64,000 nucleotides of DNA from Heterodontus francisci (lineage: Eukaryota): the NCBI RefSeq assembly GCF_036365525.1, contig NC_090375.1:46031847-46095846 (forward strand). The letters run 5' to 3'. Below, in pieces: positions 790 to 62,017 of the stretch; position 1 is the first letter of the stretch, and each line of letters begins with the position of its first letter. The notes under the pieces were generated by a model, which was not told the origin of the DNA, did no database searches, and was given only the letters and a program-made list of their open reading frames with translations. The translations under genes were made by a program, and so were the position numbers.

Positions 790-2185
790 GTACACCTCCA
801 GATTGGAAAATTGCAAAGGTAATTCCATTATTTAAGAAAGGTGAAAGAGAGAGACCAGGAAACTACTGTTATGACCAGGTGAGGAAGAGGTCTCAGGCTC
901 CCCTCTTGCCCCTTTCCTGGTTTGGCCGTAACAGAGTTTATCTTTTAAAACACAGTGATTTTAGCTTAAACCCCTCAGTGAGCCTTTTGCTCACTGCACT
1001 TTAATTGTAATTGCAAATGAACCAATCAGACAGGTTTTCTTAGGGTTAAACTTAGTAAAGATGTAAGTTTATTAGCCTTATCACTCTAACTCGGTTAAAA
1101 TGACTAAAATACGTGATGCAACCACGCTAGCATGCATATGAGAAAAACACACACACAAATAGATACAGAGGGGAGGAAAGAATTGCCGGGGTGGGGGGCA
1201 CGTTTGAAGTAGAATTTGTTGGGGCCCAATGCACAATTTCTAACTTGCTTCTCTGGTACAAGAAGACTAAAGAAGTGCTCTGTCTTGAGGCTGAAGCCGC
1301 TACTGTGGATCCCTGGGACTTTCCTGGAGAGAGAGAGAGAAAGGAGAGAGCATTTCCTTCTGTTGGTCTTCAAATTGCAGTCAGTTACTTTTCTGTGTTG
1401 CACAATTCAAACAGTTCCTAGTTTGCCCATCTCTTTGTTTGAAATCACAACTTCTTAGAGGGTTGCAGGACTTCAGAGTCTCCCAGACACTCGGTGGGGG
1501 GGGGGGGGGGGGGGCGGGGGTGTTGGAGTGCTGGCTCTTACACAGACAAGATGTGGATCATCACTGTTGCTAAGAGCAATCATGTTAATTGAAACAGTGA
1601 GCACTCCCATTGTCTCTCTATGCAACTGCCTCTCAGAATGCAAACGTGCAACCATGTTTTCAGCCACTTAGTTCTGTTTTTTTAAAACAAGTTCTGTGCA
1701 ATATCCAGTAAAAAAAAGTTCAAGTAGTGTTCCATATGACAAAATTAATATGTTTCCATTTGGCAGGTGTGATTTCCGTCACACTACAGACCCTGTTAGT
1801 CTAACATCTGCTGTGGGGAAGTTATTAGGATCTGTAAGGGGGGGGGGGGGGGGGGTGGCGGTACGGGTCATATCTAACAAACCTAATTGAATTTTTTGAG
1901 GAAATAACTTGCGTAGTAGACAGGGGAATATCTATGGATGTAGCTTTCTGGATTTCCAGAAGGCAGATACTAAGGTTCCACATAAGAGATTGTTAGCTAA
2001 AATTAAAAGCTCATTAAATTTAAGGTAAATTATTGACCTTTTTAGGTGATTGGTTAGGCAGTAGAAGACAGTATAGTGAAATAAAATATGGACTCGAATT
2101 GAAAGGAATTGACTAGTGGTGTCCCACAAGGATCTGTGATGGGGTTTCAACTCTTCACTATATTTATCAATGACTTGGATAACAT
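790..2185 (+). mobile_element. Decayed CR1-type LINE RT fragment interrupted by a solo LTR
   Basis: DWKIAKVIPLFKKGERERPGNY (to 866) continues as (R)PVSLTSAVGKLL after 1787, then DFQKA- and IFINDLD-like remnants. Confidence 0.8.
867..1783 (-). mobile_element. Solo LTR (917 bp) of a Gypsy/Gmr1-related family
   Basis: TG...CA termini (TGTTATGACC...CCGTCACA) and perfect 4-bp TSD CTAC (863-866, 1784-1787). Removing it restores the CR1 frame. The terminus resembles the reverse complement of the LTR end GGTCGTAACA at 34014. Confidence 0.85.
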
Positions 2186-2697
2186 AATACTACATAATGT
2201 AAGGTAATTCAATCAGAAAAAAGAAAAGTGGTCAATGACAAGCTTTGACAACAAACAATTTCCACAATCACCAATGCTATAACAGAAAGATGCTTGAGGT
2301 GGTTTGGTCATATCTAGAGGGTTGTGCCTGAACAGTTAACCTGGGGAGTTTATTGCAGTGGGAAGCAGAGATCAGCCAAGGGTTGTAGAATGAATGGAAG
2401 TCAGAAAAAAAGGAGGAAAATGTGCTCTGCCTGGTGACCTGATGTATTATTCTTACTGATCTACAGGATAGATGCATTGACATGATATGATTTTGAGACC
2501 CGTTGATGCCTGGCACTCAACTTGGTCTCCTGAGGCGATAATGAGCTTGTCATTTACCGTCCAGATAGTTGTAATGTGTCCAATGCCAATAGATGTTTCT
2601 CAGTGGTGGTTGAGGGGTGGAAAGGGGGAGGGGTTGAAGTGGGCAATGGTGGCAAATGAAAATCTGTTAAAGCCACCTCCAGAAACTCCAACAGTTT

Positions 2698-2957
2698 GGC
2701 AGGATTTCATGAGTCCCCCACCCCGAGGCGGATTGGAAGAGAGGGAGAGGGCATGGAGAATTGTAACAGGTGGTGAGGCAGCGGGCCCGTCACCTCCCCA
2801 TCACCCAGTGATCTTGCCAGGGGTAGGATAGGCTGACAACAGACTTCCCGCCCAGAGGCCAATTGAGGCCCTTAAGTGGCCTATTAAGGCAGAGGTGAGG
2901 TTTCTCTGCAGTTTTGGTCTAGCACTTGGAGCCCGGCCTCCAGCACAAAATCCAGCC
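2698..2957. mobile_element. Degenerate Harbinger-like MITE
   Basis: Termini GGCAGGATTT / AAATCCAGCC resemble the TIRs of the 58676 and 62051 elements; GC-rich interior. Confidence 0.45.
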
Positions 2958-3399
2958 ATTTGTTTTTTTAACAATTTTTTGATTTTGCGTTATCATGTCA
3001 ACATTTTGCGATTCACAAGGAAGGCAAGGAGAGGGAGAAACATCATAGTGCACCCTCAAACAATAAAGGTAAATTAAAACTAACTAATGAAATATTGAAT
3101 GTTTGAAACACATTATTGCAGATTGGTGGGTCATCTGCATCAACCGTGTAGCCTGTAGGAGGGAGAGGGGAATGGGTAAAGTACACTGAGGGAGTAAGCC
3201 TTTAACATGTTTTGCATCCAATTTATTCTGCTTGCAGCTTTCCATCCAGATACATTTTGTATGCTGGGGTGGGAGCGCACATTTTGGATTAAATTTTTGG
3301 TTTTAATGATTCAAACAGAGCTTCACAAACCAAGAAAGGATATCACGAATTTTTATCCATTGTCTCAGCCCTACTTTCAGAAATTTCCTCCCCAAGCCT

Positions 3400-9415: not shown

Positions 9416-10093
9416 TTCATATTTAAAGAATGACACTTGATAAAAATATTGGAGGGCATTTGTTGCTGATAGTGATTTCAGCAGAAGAGATAATGAAAAG
9501 GTATAGCCTGTAAAAGTAAATGAAGAAATCACAACAAAGAGAATCACATTAAACAGATAATCCAGGAGCTGCCATTTTAGTGGAGAGGAAACCTTAGCCA
9601 GTAAATCATTCATAATTTTCAGTATGTTCATGATTTGAAAGCAGAATTGTTAGAAGATAATTGAAATTCCCATAGGAGCCGACCACATTAATGCAGATTG
9701 ATTTTACCAGTATGTAGTTTCAGTACCAGACAGTACAGCATCATCTAGTGAAAATGTCCTTTGCTTACTGGGATTTTTCAGTTTACCATCAGCTGTTACT
9801 TTAAATCCCTATGCCCCTACCCTCTATTATTTTCTCCCACATTATCCTGCCTTACCACTTACTCCCAGACTTTTAAAAACCATCTAAAACCCTTCACTTT
9901 GTTCAAGCTTTCAACACTCTCCTCACCCTAACTTTTCTTCTGCTTGCCTCTTTTCCCTCTCGCTCAGTTTCCTACCACCTTCCGAGAGATGAGACATCTT
10001 GATATACGTGAGGAGTGCTACAGAAAGATCAGCTGCAGTTGTAGCCCTCTGAGCTATTCTTAGACCTTGTTCCATGTGAAATAGGGTAGGCGG

Positions 10094-10168
10094 TGGCGTA
10101 GTGGTATTATCACTGTACTAGTAACCCAGAGACCCAGGGTATTTCTCTGGGGACATAGGTTCGAATCC
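10094..10168 (+). promoter_or_regulatory. Internal Pol III type-2 promoter (A and B boxes) at the LINE 5' end
   Basis: TGGCGTAGTGG matches TRGCNNAGYGG and GGTTCGAATCC matches GGTTCGANNCC, 53 nt apart. Confidence 0.7.
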
Positions 10169-10897
10169 CACCAAAGCAGAAGATGGAATTTGAATTTAAT
10201 TAATAAATCTGGAATTAAAAGCTAATCTAATGATGACCATGAAACCATTGTTGATTGCCATAAAACCATTGTCGATTGTTGTAAAAACCCATCTGGTTCA
10301 CTAATGTCCTTTAGGGAAGGAAATCTGCTGTCCTTACCTGGTCTGGCCTAAATGTGACTCCAGACCCACAGCAATGTGGTTAACTCTTACATGCCCTCTG
10401 AAATGGCCTAACAAGCCACTCAGTTGTACCTAACCGCTACGAAGTCAATAAAAAGGAATGAAACCCGACGGACCGCCCGGCATCGACCTAGGCACCAGAA
10501 ATGACAATGGCAAACCCAGCCCTGTCGACCCTGCAAATTCCTCCTTACTAACATCTGGGGGCTTGTGCCAAAGTTGGGAGAGCTGTCCCACAGACTAGTC
10601 AAGCAACAGCCTGACATAGTCATACTCACGGAATCATACCTTACAGACAATGTCCCAGACACTGCAATCACTATCCCCGGGTATGTCCTGTCCCACCGGC
10701 AGAACAGACCCAGCAGAGGTGGTGGCACAGTGATATACAGTAGGGAGGGAATTGCCCTGGGAGTCCTCAACATCGACTCCGGACCCCATGAAGTCTCATG
10801 GCATCAGGTCAAACATGGGCAAGGTAACCTCCTACTGATTACCACCTACCACCGCCCTCCCTCAGCTGATGACTCAGTACTCCACCATGTTGAACAC

Positions 10898-11246
10898 GGG
10901 GCGGCACAGTGGCGCAGTGGTTAACACCGCAGCCTCACAGCTCCAGCGACCCGGGTTCAATTCTGGGTACTGCCTGTGTGGAGTTTGCAAGTTCTCCCTG
11001 TGTCTGCGTGGGTTTCCTCCGGGTCCTCCGGTTTCCTCCCACTTGCAGGTTGATAGGTAAATTGGCCATTATAAATTGCCCCTAGTATAGGTAGGTGGTA
11101 GGGAAATATAGGGACAGGTGGGGATGTGGTAGGAATATGGGATTAGTGTAGGATTAGTATAAATGGTTGGTTGATGGTCGGCACAGACTCGGTGGGCCGA
11201 AGGGCCTGTTTCAGTGCTGTATCTCTAAACTAAACTAAACTAAACT
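10898..11246 (+). mobile_element. HE1-type (V-domain) tRNA-derived SINE, full length
   Basis: GGGCGGCACAGTGGCGCAGTGG head, V domain TGTGTGGAGTTTGCAAGTTCTCCC...GGTTTCCTCCCAC, CR1-like tail, (TAAAC)n end; TSD AACAC (10893-10897, 11247-11251). Confidence 0.9.
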
Positions 11247-13949
11247 AACACCACTTGCAGGAAGCACTGAGTGTGGCAAGGGCACAAAATGTACTCTGGT
11301 TGGGGGACCTCATTACAGCCTTGGTTCAAACATGGACAAAAGAGCTGAACTCAAGAGGTGAGGTGAGAGTGAATGCTCTTGACATCAAGGCAGCATTTGA
11401 CCGACTATGGCATCAAGGAGCCCTAGCAAAACTAAGGTCAATGGGAATCGGGGAAAACTCTCCGCTGGCTGGAGTCATACCGAGCGCAAAGGAAGATGGT
11501 TGTGGTTGTTGGAGGTCAATCAACTGAGCTCCAGGACATCACTGCAGGAGTTCCTCAGGGTAGTGTCCTAGGCCCAACCATCTTCAGCTGCTTCATCAAT
11601 GACCTTCCTTCAATCATAAGGTCAGAAGTGGGGATGTTTGTGGATGATTGCACAATGTTCAGCACCATTCATGACTCCTCAGATAATGAAGCAGTCCATG
11701 TAGAAATGCAGCAAGACCTGGACAATATCCAAGCTTGGGCTTATAAGTGGCAAGTAACATTTGTGCCACACAAGTGCCAGGCAATGACCATCTCCAACAA
11801 GAGAGAAACTAACCATCTCCCCTTGACATTCAACAGCATTACCATCGCTGAATCCCCCACTATCAACATCCTAGGGGCTACCATTGACCAAAAACTGAAC
11901 TGGAGTAGCCATATAAATACCGTGGCTACAAGAGCAGGTCAGAGGCTAGGAATCCTGAGGCGAGTAACTCATCTCCTGACTCCCTAAAGCCTGTCCACCA
12001 TCTACAAGGCACAAATCAGGAGTGTGATGGAATACTCTCCACTTGCCTGGATGGGTGCAGCTCCAACAACACTCAAGAATCTCGACACCATCCAGGACAA
12101 AGCAGTCCGCTTGATTGGCACCCCATCTACAAACATTCACTCCCTCCACCACCGACGCACAGTGGCAGCAGTGTGTACCATCGACAAGATGCACTGCAGC
12201 AATGCACCAAGACTCCTTAGACAGCACCTTCCAAACCCACGACCTCTACCAATTAGAAGGACAAGGGCAGCAAATTCATGGGAACACCACCATCTGCAAG
12301 TTCCCCACCAAGTCACACAGCATCCTGACTTGAAACTCTATTGCCGTTCCTTCACTGTCGCTGGATCAAAATCCTGGAAATCCCTTCCTAACAGCACTGT
12401 GGGTGTACCTACCCCAAATGGACTGCAGCGGTTCAAGAAGGCAGCTCACCACCACCTTCTCAAGGGCAATTAGGGATAGGCAATAAATGCTGGCCTGGCC
12501 AGCGTCGCCCACATCCCATGAATGAATTAAAAAATACATAATAAGTACTTACATTATGCAGCATCATATGATCCCTCTCAAGTTCACTAACACTGGTCAC
12601 TGCTGTAAGTATTTCCCATGTCTCCTGTGATTAGCAGCTTGCTAATAACATCTACATAGATCTAACACAGGACGCTCTGTGCTCTGAACTGGGTATTAGG
12701 GATAATTTTCAACTGACTGATTGGGCAGAGTGGAACGATTGACCAATACAGAACCTGCCCAATATTAATTTTTATATAAGCCCAGTTTTAAATTCACGAC
12801 GGATAAATTTTCCATCACTAGGCTGGGCTCACTCTCCTGACCTAACTTGACTGAATGACATGCTTGTGTTCCTTTTCCCCTTTCTCTCCTTATGTTCACA
12901 AGGAGTGGGAGAATTGTCTCCCCATTCAGGGAGTTGCCAATAGATCCATCAGTTAAACCAGCTACTATGAACCCCCCCTCCGCCCCCACAAAGGCCCCCC
13001 ACCACTACTTTTGGTGTGTGTGCCCATAGAGACCATCATTCTCAAAATTAATTGGACCATCTTGTCTACTGCGTGTAGGATGAATTAATTGTTTCTTCTG
13101 CTCTACATTTGAAGTGGTCTGTGAGCAGAAGCATTTCCCAGGTTGATCCATTTAGCTTTACCGTACATCTTTAACAAATAAGCTCTTCTCTGTCTAGGTG
13201 GCTGCAGGACAAAACTGTAAAGAGGATATTAAACCAACATCAAACCACTTTGATTTAAAACACACAACTTAAATGTAACTTATTTCCATTCAAATATAGG
13301 ACCCTGATGCCATCTTAACCAGGAAGCCAGTGGGGCGCCTACAGTGACTGCCCCAGCAACAAGAATCAGGTCAGACCAGTGAAGAGGCCTGTAAGGTAAG
13401 TTTAAAGTTTTCTTTCTGGGGTCTTGAGGAGCAAGAGTGCTCCTGCAACCTTCATAGGGGAAGTGTAGGCCTGCCCTGCCCAGACTTCCCTACTCTTCAC
13501 AAACCATTGAGAGCTCTGGTAGTCCCCATCCCAGTCTCTGCACTTACCATGGGCCCAGTGGGTGGCCTCTAACTGTCTGCTGATGGCCTGGCTCTTTTCG
13601 TCGGAAAGTCAGCCAGCAGTATTTTAATGAGACCCAGTCGGTAAAATCACCTTGGCCTCCTGCTGCTATCCCCAGACAGTTGGCTGCTCACAAGACTGCT
13701 TTCCTGCCCAGGAGTTAAAATTCCTACACGTGTCAGGTTTGAAGTTCTTGTTAATACTAGCAGGTGAGGTTACTTAAATAAAAGAGGGCTGTACCACAAA
13801 TCACATCAGTTCAGTAATAGTCACAAATAACAACATGCATTTCAACTGTGCTTCTCATATGCACTTTAAATGGGAGAAAGGAAAAGAGAGAACTAAGAAG
13901 TGTGAAAGGATGGTTTGCAGATAATTTTTTTTCAGAGGCTTTTGGAATC

Positions 13950-19930: not shown

Positions 19931-21732
19931 ATAGGGATCAAAGTGCTGGAGTCTAGCTTCACACAAAGGAAGTTGGTTGCGGTTGCCAGAGGTCAATCAC
20001 TGCAGTTCTAGAACATCGCTGCAGAAGGTCCTCAGGGAACTGCCTTCAGCCCAACCTTCATCCACTGCTTTATCAATGAACTTCCCTCCATCATAAGGTT
20101 AGGTTTGTGGCTGCTCACTGTTGACTCCAGTTTTGCTCGGGCTCCTTGATACCATAGTTGGTCAAATGCGGCCTTGATAACAATGGCAGACACTCTCACC
20201 TCAGCTCTGGAGTTCAGCTCTTTTGTCCATGTTTGGACCAAGGCAATAATACGGTCAGGAGCTGAGTGTCCCTGGCAGAACACAAACTGAGCATCAGTGA
20301 GCAGGTTTTTGCTAAGCAAGTGCTGCTTGATAGCATTGTCGACGACGCCTTCCATCACTTTGCTAATGATTGAGAGTAGACTGATAGGGCGGCAACTGGC
20401 TGGGTTGGTTTTGTCCTGCTTTTTGTGTACATGACATACCTGGGCAATTTTCCAGATTGCCGGGTAAATGCCAGTGTTGTAACTGTACTGGAACAGCTTT
20501 GCTAGGGACATGCCTAGTTCTGCAGCACAAATCTTCAGTACGACTGTTGGAATGTTGTCGGGGCCCATAGCCTTTGCAGTATCCAGTGCCTTCAGCCGTT
20601 TCTTGATAGCACGCAGAGTGAATCGGACTGGCTGGCGACTGGCATCTGTGATGCTGGGGACCTCAGGAGGAGGCTGTGATGGATCATCCACTTGACATTT
20701 CTGGCTGAAGATGGATGCAAGTGCTGCAGCCTTGGCTTTTGCACTGATGTGATCGGCTCCCCCAACATTGAGGATGGAATATTTGTAGAGCCACCTCCTC
20801 CAGTTAGTTGTTTACTTGTCCACCACCATTCATGACTGGATGTGTCAGGAATGCACAGCTTAGATCTGATCCATTTGGTTGTGGGATTGCTTAGCACTGT
20901 CTATCATGTGCTATTTTCACTGTTTGGCATGTAGGTAGTCCTGTGTTGTAGCTTCACCAGGCTGACACCTCATTTTTAGGTATGCCTGATGCTGCTCCTG
21001 GCATGCCCTCCTGCACTCTTCATTCAACCAGGGTTGGTCCCCTGGCTTGTTGATAATGGTAGAGTGGGGGATATGCCGGGCCATGAGGTTACAGATTGTG
21101 GTTGAGTAGAATTCTGCAGCTGCTGATGGCCCACAGTGCCTCATGGATGCCCAGTTTTGAGTTGCTAGATCTGTTCGAAATCTATCCCATTTAGCACGGT
21201 GGTAGTGCCACACAACATGCTGGACGGTATCCTCGATGTGAAGACGGGACTTTGTCTCCACAAGGACTGTGCAGTGGTCACTCCTACCAAAACTGTCAAG
21301 GACAGATGCATCCGCGACAGGTAGGTTGGTGAGGATGAGATCAAGTAGGTTTGTCCTTCTTGTTAATTTCCTCACCACCTGCCGCAGACTCATCTAGCAG
21401 CTATGTCCTTTAGGAACTCGGCCAGTAGTGGTGCTACCGAGCCACTCTTGGTGATGGACATTGAAGTCTCCCATCCAGAGTACATTTTATGCCCTTGCTA
21501 CCCTTGTGCTTCTTCCAATTGGTCTTCAACATGGAGAAGCACTGGTTCATCAGCCGAAAGTGGGGGTTGGTGGGGGGTGCGGGGAGCGGGGGTTAGTAAT
21601 CAGCAGGAGGTTTCCTTGCCCATGTTTGACCTGATGCCATGAGACTTCATGGGTTCGGAGTCAATGTTGAGGACTTCCAGGGCAACTCCCTCCCGACTGT
21701 ATACCACTGTGCTGCCAGTTCTGCTGGGTCTG

Positions 21733-23280: not shown

Positions 23281-23554
23281 CTGTCCTGCTGGTGGGACAG
23301 GACATACCCAGGGATGGTCATGGTGGTGTCTGGGACATTGTCTGTAAGGTATGATTCTGTGAGCATGGCTATGTCAGGCTGGTCTGTGGGATAGCTCTCA
23401 CAATTTTTGGAACAAGCCCCTAGATGTTAGTAAGGAGGGCTTTGCAGGGTGAACAGGGCTGGGCTTGGCATTGTCCTTTCCAGTGCCTAGGTCGATGCTG
23501 GCTGGTCCGTCCGGTTTCATTCCTTTTTCTTACACCTTGTAGCTGTTTGTTAAT

Positions 23555-24158
23555 TCTTTCTTTTGGGCCTCCTTATCTCGAGAGACAATGGATACACGCC
23601 TGGAGGTGGTCAGTGGTTTGTGAAGCAGCACCTGGAGTGGCTATAAAGGCCAATTCTAGAGTGACAGGCCCTTCCACAGGTGCTGCAGAGAAATTTGTTT
23701 GTCGGGGCTGTTACACGGTTGGCTCTCCCCTTGCGCCTCTGTCTTTTTTCCTGCCAACTACTAAGTCTCTTCGACTCGCCACATTTTAGCCGTGTCTTTA
23801 TGGCTGCCCGCCAGCTCTGGCGAACGCTGGCAACTGACTCCCACGACTTGTGATCAATGTCACAGGATTTCATGTCGCGTTTGCAGACGTCTTTAAAGCG
23901 GAGACATGGACGGCCGGTGGGTCTGATACCAGTGGCGAGCTCGCTGTACAATGTGTCTTTGGGGATCCTGCCATCTTCCATGCGGCTCACATGGCCAAGC
24001 CATCTCAAGCGTCGCTGACTCAGTAGTGTGTACAAGCTGGGGGTGTTGGCCGCCTCGAGGACTTGTGTGTTGGAGATACGGTCCTGCCACCTGATGCCAA
24101 GTATTCTCCGGAGGCAGCGAAGATGGAATGAATTGAGACGTCGCTCTTGGCTGACATA
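23555..24158 (-). mobile_element. RTE-clade LINE 3' fragment (BovB/Expander-like C-terminus with C2H2-like motif)
   Basis: RRLRWLGHVSRMEDGRIPK...LYSEL...GRP...FKD...KRD...CSTCGRACHSRIGLYSH; 11-bp TSD TGTTTGTTAAT (23544-23554, 24159-24169). Confidence 0.85.
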
Positions 24159-24551
24159 TGTTTGTTAATACAACAGACTTAATCCAGTTCTTCACTCGAT
24201 ATGGATTATTTAATTGCGATTCAGTCGGATCACGGTTCCAATTTTATATCTAAAATTTTCCAGGAAGTTAGGAATAATTTGGGTATAACAGTTAAAGGCT
24301 TCAGCATAGCACCCACAGACACAGGGGGCTTTAGAAAGGTACCATCAGACCCTCAAAACGATGATCAGGACATACTGTCGTGAATATCCCTGTGATTGGG
24401 ATAAAGGGCTAGAATTTCTTTTGTTTGCCACTAGGATTCACCCAATGAGTCTACCGGCTTGACTCCTTTTGAATTAGTCTATGGAAATGAGGTAAGAGGT
24501 CCTCTAAAACAAAGCAAAGAAAAGTTTTTAGAACAGAGGGACAAATCTTCT

Positions 24552-27500
24552 TTAATAAAAACAGAAAGTGCTGGGAATACTCAGCAGGTCTGGCAGCATC
24601 TGTGGAGAGAGACGGTCTGTGACCTTTCATCAGAACTGGCAAAGGTTAGAAATATAATAGGTTTTAAGCAAGTGAAGCAGGGGTGAGGGAAGAGAGAACA
24701 AAGGGGAAGTGTGTGATAGGCAGATGGCAGGAGAGATTAACTAACAAGGAGGTCATGGGACCAAGGCAAAGGGAGTGCTAATGGTGTGGTGAAAAAGAAA
24801 GCATTAGTCCAGGGAGAGTGATAATGACAGAGTAACGAACTGCTCTGTCCAAAAGCACAAACATGAAAAAAGAAGTGTAAGGCAGGCACATGGTAAAAAA
24901 ATGAGAAAACAAAATAAAATAAAATAATAACTAAAAAAGGGTTGGTCATGCTCTGAAATTATTGAACTCAATGTTCAGTCCGGCAGGATGTAGTGTGCCG
25001 AATCAGAAAATGAGGTGCTGCTCATTGAGCTTGTGTTGATGTTCACTGGAACACTGCAGCAGGCCAAGGACAGAAATGTGGGTATGAGAGCAGGAGTGTG
25101 TGTTGAAATGGCAAGAAACCGGAAGCTTGGGGTCGTGTTTTCAGACTGGGTGGAGGTGTTCCACAAAACAGTCACCCAATCTGCGTTTGGTCTCCCCAGT
25201 GTAGAGGAGACCACATTGTGAGCAGCGACTCCAGTATACTACATTGAAAGAAGTACAAGTAAATCGCTGTTTGGGGCCTTGGATGGTGAGGAGAGAGGAG
25301 GTAAAAGGGCAGATATTGCACCTCCTGCAATAGCATGGGAAGGGGTCGTGGGAAGGGGACGAGGTGGAGGTAGTGGAGGAGTGGACCAGGGTATCGCAGA
25401 GGGATTGATCCCTTTGGAATGCTGCCAGGGGAGGGGAAGATGCATTTGTTGGTGGCATCATGCTGGAGGTGGTGGAAATGGCGAAGGGTGATCCTTTGGA
25501 TGTGTAGGCTGGTGGGGTGGAAAGTGAAGACAAGGGGAATCCTATCGCGGTTCTGAGAGGGAGGGGAAGGGTTGAGGGCAGAAGTGCAGGAAATGGGTCG
25601 GACAAGATCGAGGGCCCTGTCAACCACAGTGGGGGGGAATCCTTGGTTGAAGAAAATGGAAGACATATCAAAAGCGCTGTTCTGGAAGGTTGCAGAAATA
25701 GACAAGTTGCAAAAAAAGGTTTTGGATTGGGGGAGAGTGAATTTTAGTAAAATAAGGCAGGATCTGGCCAAGGTAGACTGGAAAGAGTAACTTGTCGGGA
25801 AATCTACAGAAGAGCAGTGGGGGGCATTCAAAAAGGAAATGGGGAGGGTACAGGCCCAACATGTTCCCTCTAGGGTAATAGGTAGGAGCAACAAGCCCAG
25901 AGAACCATGGATGACCAGAAACATTCAGGGTACGATGAGAAGGAAAAGAGAGGCTTTTAGCAAATACAAGGTGAGCAAATCAATTGAAGCATTAGTGGAG
26001 TACAGAAAGTGTAGGATGGAGCTTAAGAAAGCAATTAGGAGAGCAAAGAGTGGATATGAGAAAGCTCTGGCTGGTAAACGCAGGGAAAATCTCAAGATAT
26101 TCTGTAAGTATATCAATAGGAAGAGGATAACCAGGGAAAGAGTAGGACCTGTTAGGGACTAAGGGGGAAATTTGTGGGTGGAGCCAGAGGACATTGGTAG
26201 GGTGTTGAACGAATACTTCACATCTGTCTTCACACAAGAGAAAGAGGATGTAGATATGGAACTTAGAGAGAGAGAGACTGTGAGATTCTTGAGCAAATTG
26301 TCACAGGGAGTGACAAGGTATTGGAGGTTTTGGAAGGCTTAAAAGTGGACAAATCTCCAGGTCCGGACGATTTGTGTCCCAGGATGTTGTGGGAGGCGAG
26401 GGTGGAGATTGCAGAAGCTCTGACCCAAATTTTTAATTCCTCTCTGGCCACGGGGGAGGTGCCAGAGAACTGGAGAACAGCTAATGTGGTCCCACTATTT
26501 AAGAAAGGTTGTAGAGATAAGCCAGGGAACTACAGACCAGTGAGTCTAACATCAGTGGTAGGGAAACTATTGGAGAAAATTCTGAAGGATAGAATCTATC
26601 TCCATTTGGAGAGGCAAAATTTGATTAGGAATAGTCAGCATGGCTTTGTCAGAGGGAGGTCATGCCTAACAAATTTGATTGAATTTTTTGAGCATGTGAC
26701 CAGGTGTGTAGATGAGGGTAGTGCAGTTGATGTAGTTTACATGGATTTCAGCAAAACCTTTGACAAGGTCCCACATGGGAGACTTATCAAGAAGGCAAAT
26801 GCACATGGGATACAAGGTAACTTGATAAGGTGGATTCAAAATTGGCTTAGCTGTAGGAGACAGAGAGTGATGACAGACGGCTGTTTTCGTGACTGGAAGC
26901 CAGTGTCCAGTGGCGTACCACAGGGATCTGTGCTGGGTCCCCTATTGTTTGTCATTTGTATAAACGACATTGATGACTATGTGGGGGGGTAGGATCAGTA
27001 AGTTCACGGATGACACAAAGATTGGCTGAGTGGTTAACAGTGAGGTTGAGTGTCTTGGATTACAGGAAGATATAGACGGGATGGTCAAATGGGCAGAAAA
27101 GTGGCAGATGGGATTTAACGCTGAAAAGTGTGAGGTGATACACTTTGGAAGGAGTAATGTGACATGGAAGTATTCAATGAATGGCCTGACACTGGTAAGT
27201 TCCGAGGAACAAACAGACCTTGGTGTGTTTGTCCATAGATCTCTGAAGGCAGAAGGGCAGGTTAATAGGGTGGTGAAAAAGGCATATGGGACACTTGCCT
27301 TTATCAATCGAGGCATAGATTACAAAAGCAGGGAGGTCATGTTGGAGTTGTTCAGAACTTTGGTAAGGCCACAGCTGGAGTATTATGTGCAATTCTGGTC
27401 ACCACATTATTGGAAGGATGTGATTGCATTGGAGGGGGTGCAGAGGCAATTCACCAGGACGTTGCCTGGGATGGAACATTTAAGCTATGAAGAGAGGTTG

Positions 27501-37127: not shown

Positions 37128-39690
37128 TGCCACAGAATCATGATTGCTGCCAGGTTACCATGCAATGATCTGCATGATATGCTGAATATGATTACACACC
37201 AGCTGAACATTGAGACTGGAATCTCTTTCAGTTGTAGTACATCTCAAAATCAACATGCGGTGCCTGCAAAGCAACATACGTACAGTCTCTGGCATTCTGC
37301 ACCCTGGGGATGCCTGCAATCCTTGTGAAGTTGCGTGCTTGCTCTGCCTGCTTCTCTTTGGCAAGCGAGAATGAAATGCATTTAGTTCTCTTGGAATACA
37401 AATCCTCTCTCTGAGGTTCAATGGAAGAATTACTCCCTGAGCACGCTGGACAGATATGATCTCCTGCTGAGAATACTTCACCCCGTCCTCCTCCAACTAT
37501 TGCATCCATCTCTGAGAGCAAGTGGCTTGTGCAGGATCTTTGAAGTCGGGACTGCAGGATCTTTGGAGTCAGGACTTAGTAGTTCAGTACATGCCACACA
37601 ACTACCTACAAACGTTAGCAACTTTAAACGATGATAGAAAGCAAAAAACACTTGCACAATCCTAATAGTGCTAGTAGGGGGAGGGTGGGGGGTGGGGAGG
37701 TGGTGGTGGGTGGGTGTCCTACCGGCTGCTGAATGCATGTCCAGCTGTGCAGGGTTAAGACAGGGCATGAGCTGGAGTGTTGAGCTCCAAAATGGCAGCA
37801 CAGGCATCGAATCAGGGTTACATGATGATTGACGTCACAATCCACCTACTCTGCATACTTCTGAAGTTGCTCTCCGTGAATCTGCCAACACCCTCACCAA
37901 AACGGCATCGGTCTCAGTGAATACCAGATGTGCATGCAGGTGCCGCACATGCCATTTTGGAGGCAAACAGCACCTGTAGCACTGAAACATCAGGCACTAC
38001 GGAGCTGAATTTCATGATCTAAGGGAGTCTAAAGAAAAATTGACAGGAGCAAATATGCCAGAAATATCAATGAATTTGAGTGTAATTGAGGTTGCAGATG
38101 TGATCTGAAGATCATCTATCAGATAACATTTTCCTGAAAGTGGTGCTATATGAATAATATTCAGATTCTGGGTAGACTTGGGATTTACCTGTTGCTTGGA
38201 GGTAGTATTTGGCACTAAATAATTTCTTCAAGGCTGTTTTAGCAATGGAGGTGATGTGAGGATTTCATTTGAGGATGGAGATCACAGATGAACTGAAATA
38301 TCCTATCTTTATTTTTATACTTGAACTCATACATGTTTTCCTGAATATTCCAATGATTATGGAAGTAGAACAGTATTAAAAATCCTCTTTTGCAACATTT
38401 TTCCAAACTGTATATACTGCCAAGTAACATTTTAAAATATAGTGAACAAGTGTTGAGATGTAGCCACACAAATGAAAATTCTTAAGATTCATTAGCTAGC
38501 CAAGAGGACGAGACACCAAAACCAAAAGCCAAATATCATTAACCACAGATGTGTTATTAATTGAAAGGTGGGTAGAAACTTTGCATAGCTTATACCTCAA
38601 TTATGAAAGAAAATGAAAAAACTGGATGTAGCCTACTACAAAAAAATGAAAAATAAAAGGTAGAAATACTAAGGTGGCTTAGTCCACTGGTGAAATATGA
38701 ATCTAGGCTGTCACTGGATATAGCTGGTTATCTGAAACATGCTTGGATACTGGGTGAAGCAGGTTACTAAAATACTGGTTCCGCACAGGTTGGATATACC
38801 TGCTACGAGTACTTTCCAACAGGTGATCAACTAACTAGTTACCACCGTGCTCTGCCCTCTCTTGTTCTTGTTGCTAGGATTCAGAATAGCTTTTTTAAAA
38901 ATTCGTTTCATGGGATATGGGCATCACTGGCAAGGCCAGCATTAGTTGTCCATCCTAATTGCCCTTGAGAAGATGGTAGTGAGTTGCCTTCTTGAACTGC
39001 TGCAGTCTATCTGGTGCAGATACACCCACAGTTCCTTTAGGGAGGGAGTTCCAAGATTTTGATCCAAAGACAGTGAAGGAACAATGATATATTTCCAAGT
39101 CAGGCTAGTGGTGGCTTGGAGGGGAACTTTCTGATGGTGTTTGCATGCATCTGCTGCCTTTGTCCTTCTAGGTGGAAGAGGTCAGGAGTTTGGAAGGTGC
39201 TGTTGAAAGAGGTGTGGTGAGGGAGCGAACTTTTAAGGTGGTGGATGTGGTGCTGATCAAGTGGGCTGCTTTGTCCTGTTGAATCTCCTGAGAGTTGTTG
39301 GAGATGCACACATCCAGGCAAGTGGAGAGTATTCCATCACACTCCTGACTTGTGCCTTGTCGATAGATGGTGGACAGGCTTTGGGGAGTCAGTGGGTGGG
39401 TTACATGCCACAGAATTCCCACCTTCTGACCTGCTCTTGTAGTATTTATATGGCAGCTCCAATTCAGTTTCTAGTCAATGGTAACCACACCCCCCTCTCC
39501 CCCCAAGGATGCTGATAGTGGGGAAATTCAGTGATGGTAATGCCGTTGAATGTCAAGGGGAGATGGCTAAGATGGTTAGATTCTCTCTTGTTGGGAGATC
39601 GTCATTGCTTGGCACTAGTGTGGCACAAATGTTACTTGCCACTTATCAGCCCAAGCCTGAATGTCATCCAGGTCTTACTGCATATGGACA

Positions 39691-42600
39691 CTTATGAGTG
39701 CTTTTTTTGGGTCAAATTTTGAAGATTTATGATTTGAAACTGAAAAGGAGTCCATGGATTTTTTTTTAACAAGTCACTGAGGTCTGGACTGTAAACAGTT
39801 ACTTAAAGGCACCTGTCTTCAAATAATCACTCAGCAGGGGTTATTTTTGACTTGGGGAAGATGTTTACAGAGATGTTGTTTAGGGAGCATTTGCTGCGAC
39901 TGCTGGATAGGTTTGTCCCGATGAGGCAAGGAAGGGATAGTAGGGTGAAGGAACCTTGGATGACAAGAGATGTGGAACAGCTAGTCAAGAGGAAGAAGGA
40001 AGCTTACTTAAGGTTGAGGAAGCAAGGATCAGACAGGGCTCTAGAGGGTTACAAGGTAGCCAGGAAGGAACTGAAGAATGGACTTAGGAGAGCTGGAAGG
40101 GGACATGAAAAAGTCTTGGCGGGTAGGATTAAGGAAAATCCCAAGGCGTTCTACACTTATGTGAGGAACAAGACGATGGCCAGAGTGAGGGTAGGGCTGA
40201 TCAGGGATAGTGGAGGGAACTTGTGCCTGGAGTCGGAGGAGGTAGGGGAGGTCCGAAATGAATACTTTGCTTAAGTATTCACTAGTGAGAGGGACCTGGT
40301 CGTTTGTGAGGACAGCGTGGAACAGGCTGATATGCTCGAACAGGTTGATGTTAAGAGGGAGGATGTGCTGGAAATTTTGAATGACATGAGGACAGATAAG
40401 TCCCCGGGGCCAGACGGGATATACCCAAGGATATTAAGGGAAGCGAGGGAAGAGATTGCTGCGTCTTTGGCGATGATGTTTGCGTCCTCACTGTCCACTG
40501 GGGTAGTACTGGATGATTGGAGGGTGGCAAATGTTATTCCCTTGTTCAAGAAAGGCAATAGGGATAACCCTGGGAATTATAGACCAGTCAGTCTTACGTC
40601 GGTAGTGGGCAAATTATTGGAGAGGATTCCGAGAGACAGGATTTATGATTATTTGGAAAAGCATAGTTTGATTAGAGACAGTCAGCATGGCTTTGTGAGG
40701 GGCAGGGCATGCCTCACAAGCCTTATTGAATTCTTTGAAGATGTGACATAACACGTTGATGAAGAAAGAGCAGTGGATGTGGTGTATATGGATTTTAGCA
40801 AGGCGTTTGATAAGGTTCCCCATGGTAGGCTCATTCAGAAAGTAAGGATGCATGGGATGCAGGGTAAGTTGGCTGTCTGGATACAGAATTGGCTGGCCCA
40901 TAGAAGACAGAGGGTGGTAGCAGATGGAAAGTATTCAGCCTGGAGCTCGGTGATCAGTGGTGTTCCGCAGGGATCTGTTCTGGGACCTCTGCTCTTTGTG
41001 ATTTTTATAAATGACTTGGATGAGGAAGTGGAAGGCTGGGTTAGCAAGTTTGCCGATGACACAAAGGTTGCTGGAGTTGTGGATAGTGTGGAAGGTTGTT
41101 GTAGGTTGCAACGGGACATTGACAGGATGCAGAGCTGGGCTGAGAAGTGGCAGATGGAGTTCAACCTGGAAAAGTGTGAAGTGATTCATTTTGGAAGGTC
41201 GAATTTGAATGCAGAGAATACAGGCTTAAAGACAGGATTCTTGGTAGTGTGGAGGAACAGAGGGATCTTGGGGTCCATGTCCATAGATCGCTCAAAGTTG
41301 CCACCCAAGTTGATAGGGTTGTTAAGAAGGCGTATGGTGTGTTGGCTTTCATTAACAGGGGGATTGAGTTTCAGAACCGTGAGGTTATGCTGCAGCTCTA
41401 TAAAGCCCTGGTTAGACCACACTTGGAATATTGTCTTCAGTTCTGGTCGCCTCATTATAGGAAGGATGTGGAAGCTTTAGAGAGGGTGCAGAGGAGATTT
41501 ACCAGGATGCTGCCTGGACTGGAGGGCATGTCTTACGAAGAAAGGTTGAGGGTGCTAGGGCTTTTCTCATTGGAACGAAGAAGGATGAGAGGTGACTTGA
41601 TAGAGGGGTACAAGATGATGAGAGGCATAGATAGAGTGGATAGCCAAAGACTTTTTCCCAGGGCGGAAAGGGCTATCACCAGGGGCCATAATTTTAATGT
41701 GACTGGAGGAAGGTTTCGGGGAGATGTCAGAGGTAGGTTCTTTACACAGAGTGGTGGGTGCGTGGAATGCACTGCCAGTGGTGGTGGTAGAAGCAGATAC
41801 ATTAGGGACATTTAAGCGACTCTTGGATAGGTACATGGATGATAGTAGAATGAAGGGTATGTAGGTAGTTTGATCTTAGAGTAGGTTAAAGGTTCGACAC
41901 AACATCGTGGGCCTAACGGCCTGTACTGTGCTGTACTGTTCTATGTTCTAAGTGACAGGTCAAGATTTATAGAGGTCAGGAGGCTTTATTCGTGACACTG
42001 TTTATGGTTTTGCCTTGGAAAGTGAGTTAGGATATGGACAATGGTTTGAAAAAAACAGTTGGAGAAAACTTGCCAAGAGAAAAACCCCACCTCAGTCTGT
42101 CCCAGCTCTTTGAAAAAGCATGCTAGTTATCCATCTCGAGAAACTGAGAAGCAAATGTAAGAAACTGCCTGAAACCTGATATTGTATTTTCCCTTGAAAC
42201 CCTGCCCAAACTGATCTTCAACGTTGCCTGACAATAACTGTTCTAGGAAGATCCTAGTGACAACCGGCTATACACATTTGGGATTCCAAACCAAAAAGGA
42301 CATCTGAAATCTTTTCATATCTTTTTTTTTCTTCAAGAATTAGCAAGTATTTTTGGCCAACATTTTTTTTTTGTTTTTTTGCACTAGAGCTCTAAAGAGT
42401 TAACTGGTGTATGTGTGTCTGAGGGGCTAAGGTAAAAAGGGAACTTTTATATTTCGATCTGTGTTTGTGCTTTGTTTCATTACTGGTTAAGACTTATTTA
42501 ATTTTGTTGTTTATTAAAGAAACCTGGTTGGTGTGTTTTATGTGGGGAAAGTGGAAACAAGTTACTGAGTTGGATGATCAGCCATGATCATAATGAATGG

Positions 42601-46689: not shown

Positions 46690-47745
46690 TTCTTGGGATA
46701 TGAAAGTTGCTGGTTAGGCCCGCATTTATTTCCCATCCCTAGTTATCCTGAGAAAGTAGTGGAGTGAGCCTTCTTCAAGGCAGGGAGGAGATAAAGATAG
46801 GATAAGCAAATCCTGTCAGTACAGTGTGCTTGATACAACTGAGAGGCTTGCTTTGCCAAATATGAGAGCAGTTAACAATCAACCATGTTGATGTGGGGTT
46901 GGAGTCACATATCAGCCAGGCCAGGTAAGGGGAGCATGTTTCCTTTCCAAAAGGACATATTATGAACAAATTGGACTTTGACGACAATCTGACAGTTTCA
47001 TGGTCACTTTTACTGATATCAGGTTATTTCCAGATGTTTTTAAAAAACTGAATTTGAACTCATGGGGCATAAATTTTGATTTTGTGCAATAGTGTAAAAC
47101 ATCTGATAGCCACTCGGCTGCCCATAGAAAACACAGAAAAATAGGAGCAGGAGTAGGCCATTCGGCCCTTCGAGCCTGCTCCACCATTCAATACGATCAA
47201 GGCTGATTATCCAAACTCAGTAACCTGCTCCCGCTTTCTCCCCATATCCCTTGATCCCATTAGCCCTAAGAACTCTAACGTTTTCTTGAATATATTTAAT
47301 GATTTGGCCTCAACTGCTTTCCGTGGTAGAGAATTCCACAAGTTCACCACTCTCTGGGTGAAGAAATCTATCCTCATCTCGGTCCTAAATGGCTTACCCC
47401 TTATCCTTAGACTGTGACCCCTGGTCCTGGGCTCCCCCACCATCGGGAACATCCTTCCTGCATCTAGTCGGTCCAGTTCTGTTAGAATTTTGTTACATTT
47501 CACTCAATTTTAACTTCAATCGAAATATAAATTGGCAGAGATTCAAGCAGAGACACGATAGACCAAATGGCCTCCTTTTGTGTTGTAAATATTTCTATGT
47601 TTATTTCTTTCTATGTAAAACAGGCTGCCGAATCACTTTCGTCGCTTCACGCTATCGCACAATGCTAAGATCTGCCCCGCGTTCTCTAGATTATTAGCCC
47701 AGGCCTCTGGATTACTCATCCACTAACAGCCACTACACTACTATA
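46690..47745 (-). mobile_element. Old short derivative of the tRNA-headed LINE (tail, 5' body to about 47062, head at about 47680-47745), interrupted by a CR1 tail at 47124-47490
   Basis: GCATTTATTTCCCATCCCTAG tail, GATACAACTGAG...GGAGTCACAT...CCAGGTAAGG...AAAGGACAT body, CTCTGGATTACTCATCCA head. Linking the head piece to the rest is inference. Confidence 0.6.
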
Positions 47746-60171: not shown

Positions 60172-62017
60172 ATAGGTAACTACAGGGCAGTTGGCTTAAC
60201 ATCAGTCATAGGGAAAATGAAAGAAGCTATTATTGAAGACATTATAGCAGGGCACTTAGAAAAACTCAAGGTAATTGGGCAGAGTCAACATGGTTTTGTG
60301 AAAGGGAAATTCCTTGTTTAACCAATTTATTGGAGTTCTTTGAAGTAACATGTGCTGTGGATAAAGGGGAACCGGTGGATGTACTGTACTTAGATTTTCC
60401 AGAAGGCATTTGATAATGTGCCGCATCAAAGGTTGTTGTGGAAAATAAAAGCTCATGGTGTAGGGGTTAACATTTGGCATGGACAGAAGATTGGCTGGCT
60501 AACAGGAAACAAAGAGTAGGATAAATGGGTCATTTTCTGGTTGGAAAAATTTAACGAGTGGTGTGCCACAGGGATCAGTGCTGGGGCCTCAACTTTTTAG
60601 AGTTTATATTAACAACTTAGATGAAGAAACCGAAGATATGGTTGCTAAATTTGTTGATGGCACAAAGATAGGTAGGAAAGTAAGTTGTGAAGAGGACATA
60701 AGGAGGCTACAAAGGGATATAGGTAGGTTAAGTGATTGGGTAAAGATCTGGCAAATGGAGTATAATGTGGGAAAATGTGAAATGGTCCATTTTGGCAGGA
60801 AGAAAATAAAGAAGCATATTATCTAAATGGTGAGAGAATGCAGAGCTGTGAGATGCAGAGAGATCTGATTGTCCTACTGCATGAATCGCAAAAGGTTAGT
60901 ATGCAGGTACAGCAATTAATTGGGAATGCTAATAGAATGTTATTGTTTATTGCGAGGGGAATTGAATACAAAAGTAGGGAGGATATGCTTCAGTTATACA
61001 GGGCATTGGTGAGAGCACATCTGGAGTACTGTGTACAGAATTGGTCTCCTTCTTTAAGGAAGGATGTAAATGCATTGGAAGCAATCCAGAGAAGGTTTAC
61101 TAGACTTTACTACCTGGAATGGGCAGGTTGTCTTATGAGGAAAGGTTGGAAAAGCTAGGCTTATATCTGTTGGAATTTAGAAGAGTAAGAGGCGACTTGA
61201 TTGAAACATATAAGATTCTGAGGGGTCTTGACAGGGTGGATGTGGAAAGGATGTTTCCTCTTGTGGGAGAATCTGGAACTAGGGGTCACTGTTTAAAAAT
61301 AAGCGGTCACTCATTTAAGACAGAGATGAGGAGAAATTCTTTCTCTCAGAGGGTCGTGAGTCTTTGGAACTCTTCCTCAAAAGGCAGTCTTTGAATATTT
61401 TTAAGGCACAGATAGATTTTTTTTTATTTGTCTTATGTGGGATGTGGGCATCACTGGCTAGGCCAGCATTTATTGCCCATCCCTAATTGCCCTTGAACTA
61501 AGTGGCTTGCTCGGCCATTTCAGAGGGCATTTAAGAGTCAACCACATTGCTGTGGGTCTGGAGTCACATGTTGGCCAGACCAGGTAAGGACGGCAGATTT
61601 CCTTCCCTAAAAGGACATTAGTGAACCAGATGGGTTTTTACAACAATTGACAATGGTTTCATAGTCACCATTCAGAGAATCATTACAGCGCAGGAGGCCA
61701 TTCAGCCCATCGTGTCCGCACTGGCTCTCTGAAAGAGCAACTCCCTCATTACTTGTAATTCCAGATTTATTAATTTAGTTCAAATTTCAACATCTGTCGT
61801 GGTGGGATTTGAAGCCATATCCGCATAGCCTGGGCTCTGGATTATGAGTCAAGTGATATTACCACTTTGCCACCACCTCTTGACAAGCAAGGGGGTGAAA
61901 GAGTATTGGGAGTAGGCAGGAATATGGAGTTGAGGTTACAATCAGATCAGCCATGATCTTATTGAATGGCGGAGCTCAAGAGGCTGAGTGGCCAACTCCT
62001 GCTCTTATGTTCCTATG
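60172..62017 (+). mobile_element. 5'-truncated CR1 interrupted by a SINE
   Basis: GNYRAVGLTSVIGK, QGSVLGP, AKFVDG, LVRAHLEYC; resumes at about 61879 through the tail CTCTTATGTTCCTATG. Confidence 0.88.
61417..61878 (-). mobile_element. Bipartite tRNA-derived SINE: 5' ~340 nt of the tRNA-headed LINE fused to its last ~70 nt (with a small CR1 tail at about 61675-61745)
   Basis: Minus strand: GAGGTGGTGGCAAAGTGG head, the same body as 10190-10425, then GCCACTTAGTT|CAAGGGCAATTAGGGATGGGCAATAAATGCTGGCC and poly(A). Confidence 0.85.

What the first reader, a model, noticed from the sequence alone, without database searches (positions are those of the whole stretch)
10084..12531. Candidate Pol III-transcribed autonomous LINE: tRNA-derived head fused to a single APE-RT ORF, with no TTTT on the sense strand
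Seen: the element starts with canonical A (10094-10104) and B (10158-10168) boxes, has a ~320-nt leader and no ORF1, and runs into an endonuclease-RT ORF. An ATG at 10403 is in frame with the endonuclease (ATG GCC TAA here, ATG GCC GAG in the SINE copy at 61.5 kb). Reading by eye I find no TTTT in ~2.1 kb of its sense strand, and only one in the ~1.6 kb of the decayed minus copy 20121-21732 that covers the deleted part. The opposite strand and the neighbouring CR1s have many T4 runs. Established: T4 or longer terminates Pol III; LINEs normally use Pol II promoters and tRNA heads define non-coding SINEs. Inference: the family may be under selection for full-length Pol III transcription of a coding RNA, which would require cap-independent translation, with the conserved leader a possible IRES-like element. 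I cannot say whether the family is already catalogued.
Basis: partly seen in the sequence, partly recalled or inferred. Interest (0 to 1): 0.85.

Follow-up and report, generated by a model that had tools for sequence, protein, structure and literature searches.

The report
Protein-coding LINE with a SINE promoter
This is a decayed copy of an abundant 3.3-kb protein-coding jumping gene whose full-length copies all start with the tRNA-type promoter of short non-coding SINEs and whose coding strand lacks the T-runs that stop RNA polymerase III, so it is likely a rare case of a long coding RNA made by that polymerase.

Summary
Of 80 copies picked by their RT region, 28 begin at positions 1-10 of a tRNA-Ser-like head and none extends beyond it; older subfamilies (83-86% identical) are headed too. 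The 3,296-nt majority has one 975-codon EN-RT frame under purifying selection (dN/dS ~0.15) and no T4. T4 absence alone is weak (P~0.09), but terminator-like motifs are 0 vs 5 expected (P~0.006) and T3 runs 4 vs 12.8, the lowest ratios among 41 control LINE frames; an RTE control is half-depleted, which weakens specificity. A ~393-nt SINE is this LINE with its middle deleted. Corrections: the ATG at 10403 is followed by a stop in 92 of 116 copies, so the ORF has no usable in-frame AUG; the leader shows no folding signal (z +0.76), so an IRES is unsupported. Pol III transcription is inferred, not shown (~0.55). Not found in 10 literature searches; Repbase/Dfam not searchable. The scan noted the same idea on two other genomes.

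The parts
10079..10083 (+). 5' target-site duplication AAATA (second copy 12532-12536)
   Evidence: sequence
10084..10176 (+). tRNA-derived head; best match host tRNA-Ser(AGA), Thr(TGT) close behind
   Evidence: z 6.2-6.6 against 10 host tRNA sequences of 3 amino-acid types only; ARAGORN and Rfam tRNA model do not call it
10094..10104 (+). Pol III A box
10158..10168 (+). Pol III B box
   Evidence: G80A (still consensus) 30% vs C79T 8% of 122 copies
10222..10427 (+). conserved leader core (element 139-323), shared with the SINE
   Evidence: 3 of 185 old-vs-young differences vs 10% at synonymous sites, p=5e-6; no folding signal
10403..10411 (+). ATG-GCC-stop, two-codon uORF in frame with the main ORF
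   Evidence: stop at codon 3 in 92 of 116 copies
10424..10426 (+). in-frame TTG, candidate non-AUG start (inferred); the SINE junction cuts through it
10458..10598 (+). 46-codon AUG mini-ORF in another frame, overlapping the endonuclease start; AUG missing in the three oldest copies
10412..10897 (+). main ORF, Arg-rich leader and APE endonuclease (5' part; this copy has a TGA at 10502)
10898..11246 (+). inserted V-SINE (HE1-like, name recalled) with AACAC duplication
11247..11312 (+). main ORF resumes (element 786-851), then ~1.2-kb internal deletion
11306..12473 (+). RT domain and C-terminal part of the main ORF (element 2066-3235), broken in this copy
12474..12531 (+). 3' UTR with AATAAA, (TGAA)2 and short A tail; last ~75 nt shared with the SINE
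20121..21732 (-). older copy of the same LINE (element 601-2201, 87%)
23281..23547 (-). older fragment (element 328-603, 85%) next to an RTE copy
38907..39691 (-). old 3' fragment (element 2460-3284, 77%)
46690..47006 (-). old SINE-type derivative (leader 151-324 plus tail 3194-3284, 76%)
61419..61878 (-). partner SINE: head + leader (1-321) + tail (3222-3296), with a small insert

Best explanation
The stretch is a broken copy of a 3.3-kb autonomous single-ORF endonuclease-RT LINE whose full-length copies begin with a tRNA-derived A/B-box head, and which is likely transcribed end to end by RNA polymerase III from that head. Shown: the head is the family's 5' end in young and old subfamilies; the ORF is under purifying selection; the sense strand has no T4 or TVTTT in the ORF; a SINE is the same element with the middle deleted. 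Inferred: TFIIIC/Pol III start at G1, ten bases before the A box; selection removed U-runs so the enzyme reaches the 3' end; transcription would stop at a T-run in the flank or at a T-run that has grown into the A tail; the uncapped RNA would be translated inefficiently without an in-frame AUG, most plausibly by restart or leak after AUG-GCC-UAG at or near the in-frame UUG; the protein would then bind the 3' tail and insert the RNA by target-primed reverse transcription with 0-7-bp duplications. The conserved leader is most likely a cis element needed by both LINE and SINE (ribosome or RT recruitment).
For: Head-ORF join in 37 of 39 hits; 28 of 80 RT-selected copies start at 1-10, 20 at exactly 1, none longer; heads on 83-86% copies L224, L234, L247, L264, L267; leader-to-ORF contigs in runs of other coded organisms (X3, X9, X13, X18). 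Old-vs-young majority: 67 synonymous, 33 non-synonymous, 0 stops, dN/dS ~0.15; the old majority also has no T4. ORF T3 runs 4 vs 12.8; T4|TVTTT 0 vs 5.0 (P=0.006); 4-of-5-T motifs 1 vs 8.75 (P=0.0008); A-run mirror at expectation. Observed/expected ratios 0, 0.11, 0.31 against lowest values 0.70, 0.79, 0.73 among 36 metagenomic LINE ORFs and 0.76-1.08 for three same-genome CR1 frames. T4-free stretch 3,296 nt vs 914 antisense, 1,419 RTE, 811 CR1. Phe 1.85%, below all 57 full-length homologues (min 2.1%). TTTT and TVTTT are the minimal terminators in SINE tests (PMC8466645, passages). Pol III type-2 promoters can give translatable RNA once TTTT is removed (PMC8223928, passages). No G excess at position -1 (A 44, T 24, G 19, C 5 of 92), weakly fitting an uncapped RNA.
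Against: No direct transcription data: all runs were contigs. T4 absence alone P~0.09. The family is one lineage, so the depletion is one data point. Same-genome RTE (T 21%) is depleted of the same motifs by about half (8 vs 16.6, P=0.0065; 17 vs 29.2, P=0.0035) and a Penelope-like frame gives 3 vs 7.3, so some U-run avoidance occurs without a tRNA head. A TATTT lies inside the young head (57-61). Box columns are not significantly more conserved than the rest of the head (0 of 18 vs 10 of 106 diagnostic columns). Crustacean-type homologues also have low Phe (2.1-2.3%). No IRES-like fold. AATAAA 50 nt from the end fits Pol II equally. 3.3 kb is far beyond usual Pol III products (own knowledge).
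Confidence: 0.55

Rival explanations
1. The LINE captured (or gave rise to) a SINE head, but its coding RNA is made by Pol II, from the head/leader acting as an internal Pol II promoter or by read-through; T-run depletion reflects general avoidance of U-rich elements plus a T-poor strand.
For: RTE and Penelope-like controls show partial depletion; AATAAA near the 3' end; papers treat LINE transcription as Pol II (PMC5786205, passages); Pol II can use Pol III promoters (title of a reference in PMC8223928).
Against: Depletion is complete here and the most extreme of 42 frames tested, including T3 runs where RTE is at expectation (25 vs 26.6); both boxes stay intact across subfamilies; LINE and SINE start at the same base; AUGs in the leader with no in-frame start suit cap-dependent scanning poorly.
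Confidence: 0.3
2. Dual use: Pol III makes the retrotransposition template (hence terminator avoidance and the sharp 5' end) while the protein comes from capped Pol II or read-through RNAs, so no Pol III mRNA exists.
For: Explains head, sharp start and T-run avoidance without needing translation of uncapped RNA; no IRES signal; six of 80 copies start at 338-349, just before the AUG at 354.
Against: That 5'-end cluster did not repeat (6 of 40, then 0 of 40); the AUG at 354 is out of frame and missing in the three oldest copies; LINE proteins usually act on their own mRNA (own knowledge).
Confidence: 0.12
3. Chance SINE-LINE adjacency or a non-autonomous chimera.
For: The window copy is broken, and the in-frame ATG is blocked by a stop.
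Against:: same join in dozens of independent loci, no alternative 5' end, ORF under purifying selection.
Confidence: 0.03

Closest known systems
CR1-Zenon single-ORF LINEs and their internally deleted derivative Persaeus (PMC6740152, passages); 'CR1-Zenon like' LINEs are annotated in whale shark (bioRxiv 10.1101/443036, passage)
   Same: Single EN-RT ORF, A tail, bipartite 5'+3' derivative; the RT tree puts the element in a single-ORF clade apart from ORF1-bearing CR1. The Zenon label rests on recalled motif likeness, with no labelled reference in the tree.
   Different: Persaeus/Zenon are reported to lack tRNA homology and a Pol III promoter; here both LINE and derivative carry one.
tRNA-derived SINEs with LINE-derived body and tail (Kojima 2018, PMC5786205, passages and section 24)
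   Same: Head + LINE 5' part + LINE 3' part, mobilised by the partner LINE.
   Different: In that model the head is added after internal deletion, only RTE/Vingi-type LINEs give bodies, and SINEs cannot code; here the head is already on the coding LINE and the SINE needs only a deletion.
T+ SINEs B2/Dip/Ves (PMC8466645, passages)
   Same: AATAAA before a short A tail, and T-runs that grow into the tail as copies age (about 25-28 of 139 LINE ends).
   Different: Those are short non-coding RNAs with a built-in terminator; here most copies have none.
Shark SINE/LINE pairs HE1/HER1 and SacSINE1 (PMC3747384 table passage; PMC5499810 parts 1-3 of 6)
   Same: Same host group (inferred from repeat content), tRNA head and LINE tail.
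   Different: They share only the 3' tail with their LINE; no sequence of them was available here, by recall this body is neither V nor Deu.
Engineered Pol III mRNAs (PMC8223928, passages; Gunnery and Mathews 1995 seen only as a reference title)
   Same: Type-2 promoter fused to an ORF cleared of TTTT gives protein.
   Different: Artificial and short; this would be a natural 3.3-kb case.
BovB LINEs carrying SINE pieces at their 5' end (recalled; paper not held)
   Same: LINE with a tRNA-SINE at its 5' end.
   Different: Not tested here; no terminator avoidance or Pol III use known to me.

Membership tests
Autonomous APE-type LINE | Endonuclease and RT in one long ORF | tested here: met
   975-codon frame; Pfam on natural copy L099
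Autonomous APE-type LINE | ORF under purifying selection | tested here: met
   67 syn, 33 non-syn, 0 stops
Autonomous APE-type LINE | 5'-truncated copies, fixed 3' end, short target duplications | tested here: met
   52 of 80 truncated; 3-7-bp matches in 19 of 34 full-length copies, no chance control
Autonomous APE-type LINE | Pol II internal promoter, capped RNA | not testable with these tools
   only contigs available
Canonical CR1 (two ORFs) | ORF1 upstream of ORF2 | tested here: not met
   no ORF1; same-genome CR1 has an esterase ORF1 and falls in another clade
CR1-Zenon | Single ORF and A tail | tested here: met
CR1-Zenon | RT groups with labelled Zenon elements | not testable with these tools
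   no labelled reference; nearest proteins 41-50% identical are unnamed
tRNA-derived SINE (SINE2) | tRNA-derived head with A and B boxes at the 5' end | tested here: met
tRNA-derived SINE (SINE2) | Short and non-coding | tested here: not met
   LINE is 3.3 kb and coding; met only by the ~393-nt derivative
tRNA-derived SINE (SINE2) | No internal Pol III terminator on the sense strand | tested here: met
   one TATTT in the young head
tRNA-derived SINE (SINE2) | Transcribed by Pol III | not testable with these tools
   needs ChIP, 5'-end chemistry or in vitro transcription
MetaSINE / DeuSINE / V-SINE | Body matches the named conserved domain | tested here: inconclusive
   by eye no likeness to BivaMeta/BivaMD alignments (part 1 of 4); Deu and V judged from recall; SacSINE1 supplement unreadable
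IRES- or ribozyme-led LINE (R2/RTE type) | Structured 5' leader or HDV-like ribozyme | tested here: inconclusive
   fold z +0.76 and +0.48; no Rfam hit; my HDV descriptor found nothing but also had no working positive control

The most novel reading that the evidence does not exclude
A natural 3.3-kb messenger RNA made by RNA polymerase III: an autonomous vertebrate retrotransposon that runs on a tRNA promoter, has purged U-runs (and Phe codons) from its ORF to survive Pol III termination, is translated without cap or in-frame AUG through a conserved leader, and spawns true SINEs by simple internal deletion.
Probability: 0.45. Interest if true: 0.92.

Novelty: new variant of a known kind. Interest (0 to 1): 0.74.

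Why it matters
It would break the working split between Pol II coding LINEs and Pol III non-coding SINEs, give a natural test case for how long a Pol III transcript can be and how uncapped RNA is translated, and offer a direct route for SINE birth (deletion of a headed LINE) that explains a conserved SINE body as a LINE leader. Even if Pol II turns out to be used, a family-wide tRNA-headed LINE with its matching SINE is a clean example for the question of where SINE bodies come from.

Tried and rejected
ATG 10403 as start: stop at codon 3 in 92 of 116 copies; the CAG/GAG/AAG variants match the rate at another CCTAG site (23 of 128 vs 23 of 135), so they look like hypermutation, not opened starts. 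AUG-354 mini-ORF plus -1 frameshift: two old-vs-young changes are synonymous in that frame, but both are CpG sites, no slippery site is evident and the AUG is missing in the three oldest copies; left open. Second 5' end at 338-349: 6 of 40, then 0 of 40; not replicated. T-runs before the A tail as inherited terminators: T+A length stays near 10 and T-runs also occur inside tails, so most likely post-insertion change, as in B2 (PMC8466645). Leader structure, Rfam, ARAGORN and HDV descriptor: nothing. tRNA heads on distant relatives: none among 50 metagenomic loci by ARAGORN, which also misses this head, and no A+B pair among 36 with long ORFs; only L110 of these is in the same clade, and many contigs may lack the true 5' end. 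Public runs: contigs only, RNA status mostly guessed; they show presence in other coded organisms but no start, strand or cap. Searches meant to reach much older subfamilies mostly returned young copies. Literal motif search of the library found no paper printing this sequence.
Full report
Setting. The window lies on contig C5 of a 6.0-Gb genome. It is dense in CR1, RTE and V-SINE-like repeats, which fits a shark; this is inferred from repeat content, with names recalled.

Observation. The A box (10094-10104), B box (10158-10168), in-frame ATG at 10403, absence of T4 in 10084-12531 and the single T4 in the minus copy are all as described. The copy is broken: a V-SINE-like insert at 10898-11246 with a 5-bp duplication, loss of element positions ~852-2065, stops and frameshifts.

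The head belongs to the family. Searching the genome with head plus endonuclease gave 39 non-self full hits among 40 scored candidates of 10,474; 37 cover the join from position 27 or earlier. I fetched all 39; 34 reached the 3' tail and 24 near-full-length ones gave a 3,296-nt majority with one 975-codon stop-to-stop frame, 0 T4, 8 T3, against 15 A4, 13 C4, 8 G4; 16 of the 24 copies have no T4 and the other eight have private ones. Because that sample was chosen by the head, I took a second one chosen by the RT region only: 80 of 131 hits. Of these 28 begin at positions 1-10 (20 at position 1), 52 are 5'-truncated, and none extends further with shared sequence. Copies 83-86% identical to the majority carry an older version of the head. 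Old-versus-young majority differences in the ORF are 67 synonymous, 33 non-synonymous, no stops, dN/dS about 0.15 (old set heterogeneous, depth 5-21). Contigs from runs of other coded organisms bridge leader and ORF (X3, X9, X13, X18) and show the SINE joint. The head aligns best to host tRNA-Ser(AGA), with Thr(TGT) close, among 10 tRNA sequences of three types.

The SINE. Twenty-nine SINE loci are LINE positions 1-321 joined to 3222-3296, with variant joints 323/3219 and 321/3225 and further joints in other organisms. Young SINEs match the young LINE head and old ones the old head. This is most simply internal deletion of an already headed LINE (inference), the reverse of the order proposed in PMC5786205 (section 24 read).

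T-run avoidance. Against synonymous-codon shuffles the ORF has T4 0 vs 2.1 (P=0.085), T3 4 vs 12.8 (none of 5,000 as low), T4-or-TVTTT 0 vs 4.96 (P=0.006) and 4-of-5-T motifs 1 vs 8.75 (P=0.0008); A-runs are at expectation. TTTT and TVTTT are the shortest working terminators in B2 SINE tests (PMC8466645, passages). Controls: three same-genome CR1 frames have ratios 0.76-1.08; 36 of 80 metagenomic loci had ORFs of 800 codons or more, with mean ratios about 1.0 and lowest 0.70, 0.79 and 0.73 against 0, 0.11 and 0.31 here. Against my reading: an RTE of the same genome and T content has 8 vs 16.6 terminator-like motifs (P=0.0065) and a Penelope-like frame 3 vs 7.3, though RTE keeps four T4 runs and normal T3 counts. 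The family is one lineage, so this is one observation; the old majority agrees (no T4) but is not independent. Phe is 1.85%, below all 57 long homologues.

Translation. Codon 3 after the ATG is a stop in 92 of 116 copies; the 23 sense variants match the mutation rate of another CCTAG site. The first in-frame Met lies after the endonuclease. Candidates are leak or restart after AUG-GCC-UAG, the in-frame UUG at 320-322, or a 46-codon AUG frame from 354 with a frameshift; none is shown. AUG-less or unusual ORF2 starts are a known open issue for LINEs (PMC3894237, passages). The leader core (139-323) differs at 3 of 185 sites between old and young majorities versus 10% of synonymous sites (p=5e-6) but folds no better than shuffles (z +0.76). 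It is kept whole by the non-coding SINE, so it is a cis element for both; an IRES is unsupported.

Placement. Nearest proteins are unnamed ~940-residue EN-RT proteins at 35-45% over the RT half. An RT tree (FastTree, 62 rows, 380 columns, RTE as root) puts the element with these in a clade of support 0.999, apart from ORF1-bearing CR1 including this genome's CR1. CR1-Zenon is the likely label by recalled likeness; Zenon is single-ORF and makes deleted derivatives without a Pol III promoter (PMC6740152, passages), and Zenon-like LINEs are annotated in whale shark (10.1101/443036, passage). The one same-clade relative with DNA, L110, has no A/B boxes and 20 T4 runs.

Literature. Ten searches found no report of an autonomous tRNA-headed or Pol III-transcribed LINE, nor this sequence in print. 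I read PMC5499810 parts 1-3 of 6 (supplement unreadable; it holds SacSINE1 alignments that could bear on the SINE's identity), PMC4824008 parts 2-3 of 6 and part 1 of 4 of its supplement, and passages of PMC7245038, PMC5786205, PMC8466645, PMC6740152, PMC11481361, PMC3894237, PMC3747384, PMC8223928, PMC5381603 and 10.1101/443036. Repbase, Dfam, SINEBase and most subscription papers were out of reach, so the family may already be catalogued. Two earlier notes of this scan on other genomes state the same idea; they are not independent support; sequence look-ups found none.

Verdict. Architecture confirmed and family-wide; Pol III transcription is the best-supported mechanism (about 0.55) but rests on indirect sequence evidence; start codon and IRES claims need correction. 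New variant of a known kind, potentially categorically new if Pol III use and translation are shown.

Noticed in passing
L250-L253 (G000 C1:153642000, C10, C4, C30); window 23610-24164 (-): Young RTE-type LINE with intact 1,068-1,069-codon ORFs and a ~550-nt leader; its sense strand is half-depleted of T4/TVTTT motifs though it has no tRNA head.
   Followed up: partly
window 39872-41948 (+) and 51568-55256 (-): Young two-ORF CR1 with a GDSL-esterase ORF1; two copies 96% alike in inverted orientation.
   Followed up: partly
element positions 305, 327, 334, 385, 442, 445: T in TpA (above all CCTAG) mutates to G or C far more often than background in this genome's copies (about 17-18% at the two CCTAG sites).
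   Followed up: partly
L227-L229, L232, L235-L240: One full-length copy with the same flank on many small contigs, i.e. amplified inside a segmental or tandem repeat.
   Followed up: no
L099 959-1110: The leader core is many times deeper than the head in other organisms' contigs and has many loose 5' ends, suggesting it is also the body of other SINE families with different heads; several different leader-to-tail joints suggest repeated independent deletions.
   Followed up: partly
L110 1-950: The one same-clade relative with DNA has a 950-nt leader without ORF1, without A/B boxes and with many T4 runs; it looks RTE-like by eye but gave no Rfam hit.
   Followed up: partly
A tails of LINE and SINE copies: A-to-T conversion of short tails gives T4-T9 runs in about a fifth of copies, which would supply a Pol III terminator at the exact 3' end.
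   Followed up: partly
window 24904-25694 and 28341-29833: Penelope-like (GIY-YIG type by eye) element fragments.
   Followed up: no
L048 4344-5306 (oriented): A 320-codon intronless GPCR-like ORF just downstream of a full-length copy.
   Followed up: no
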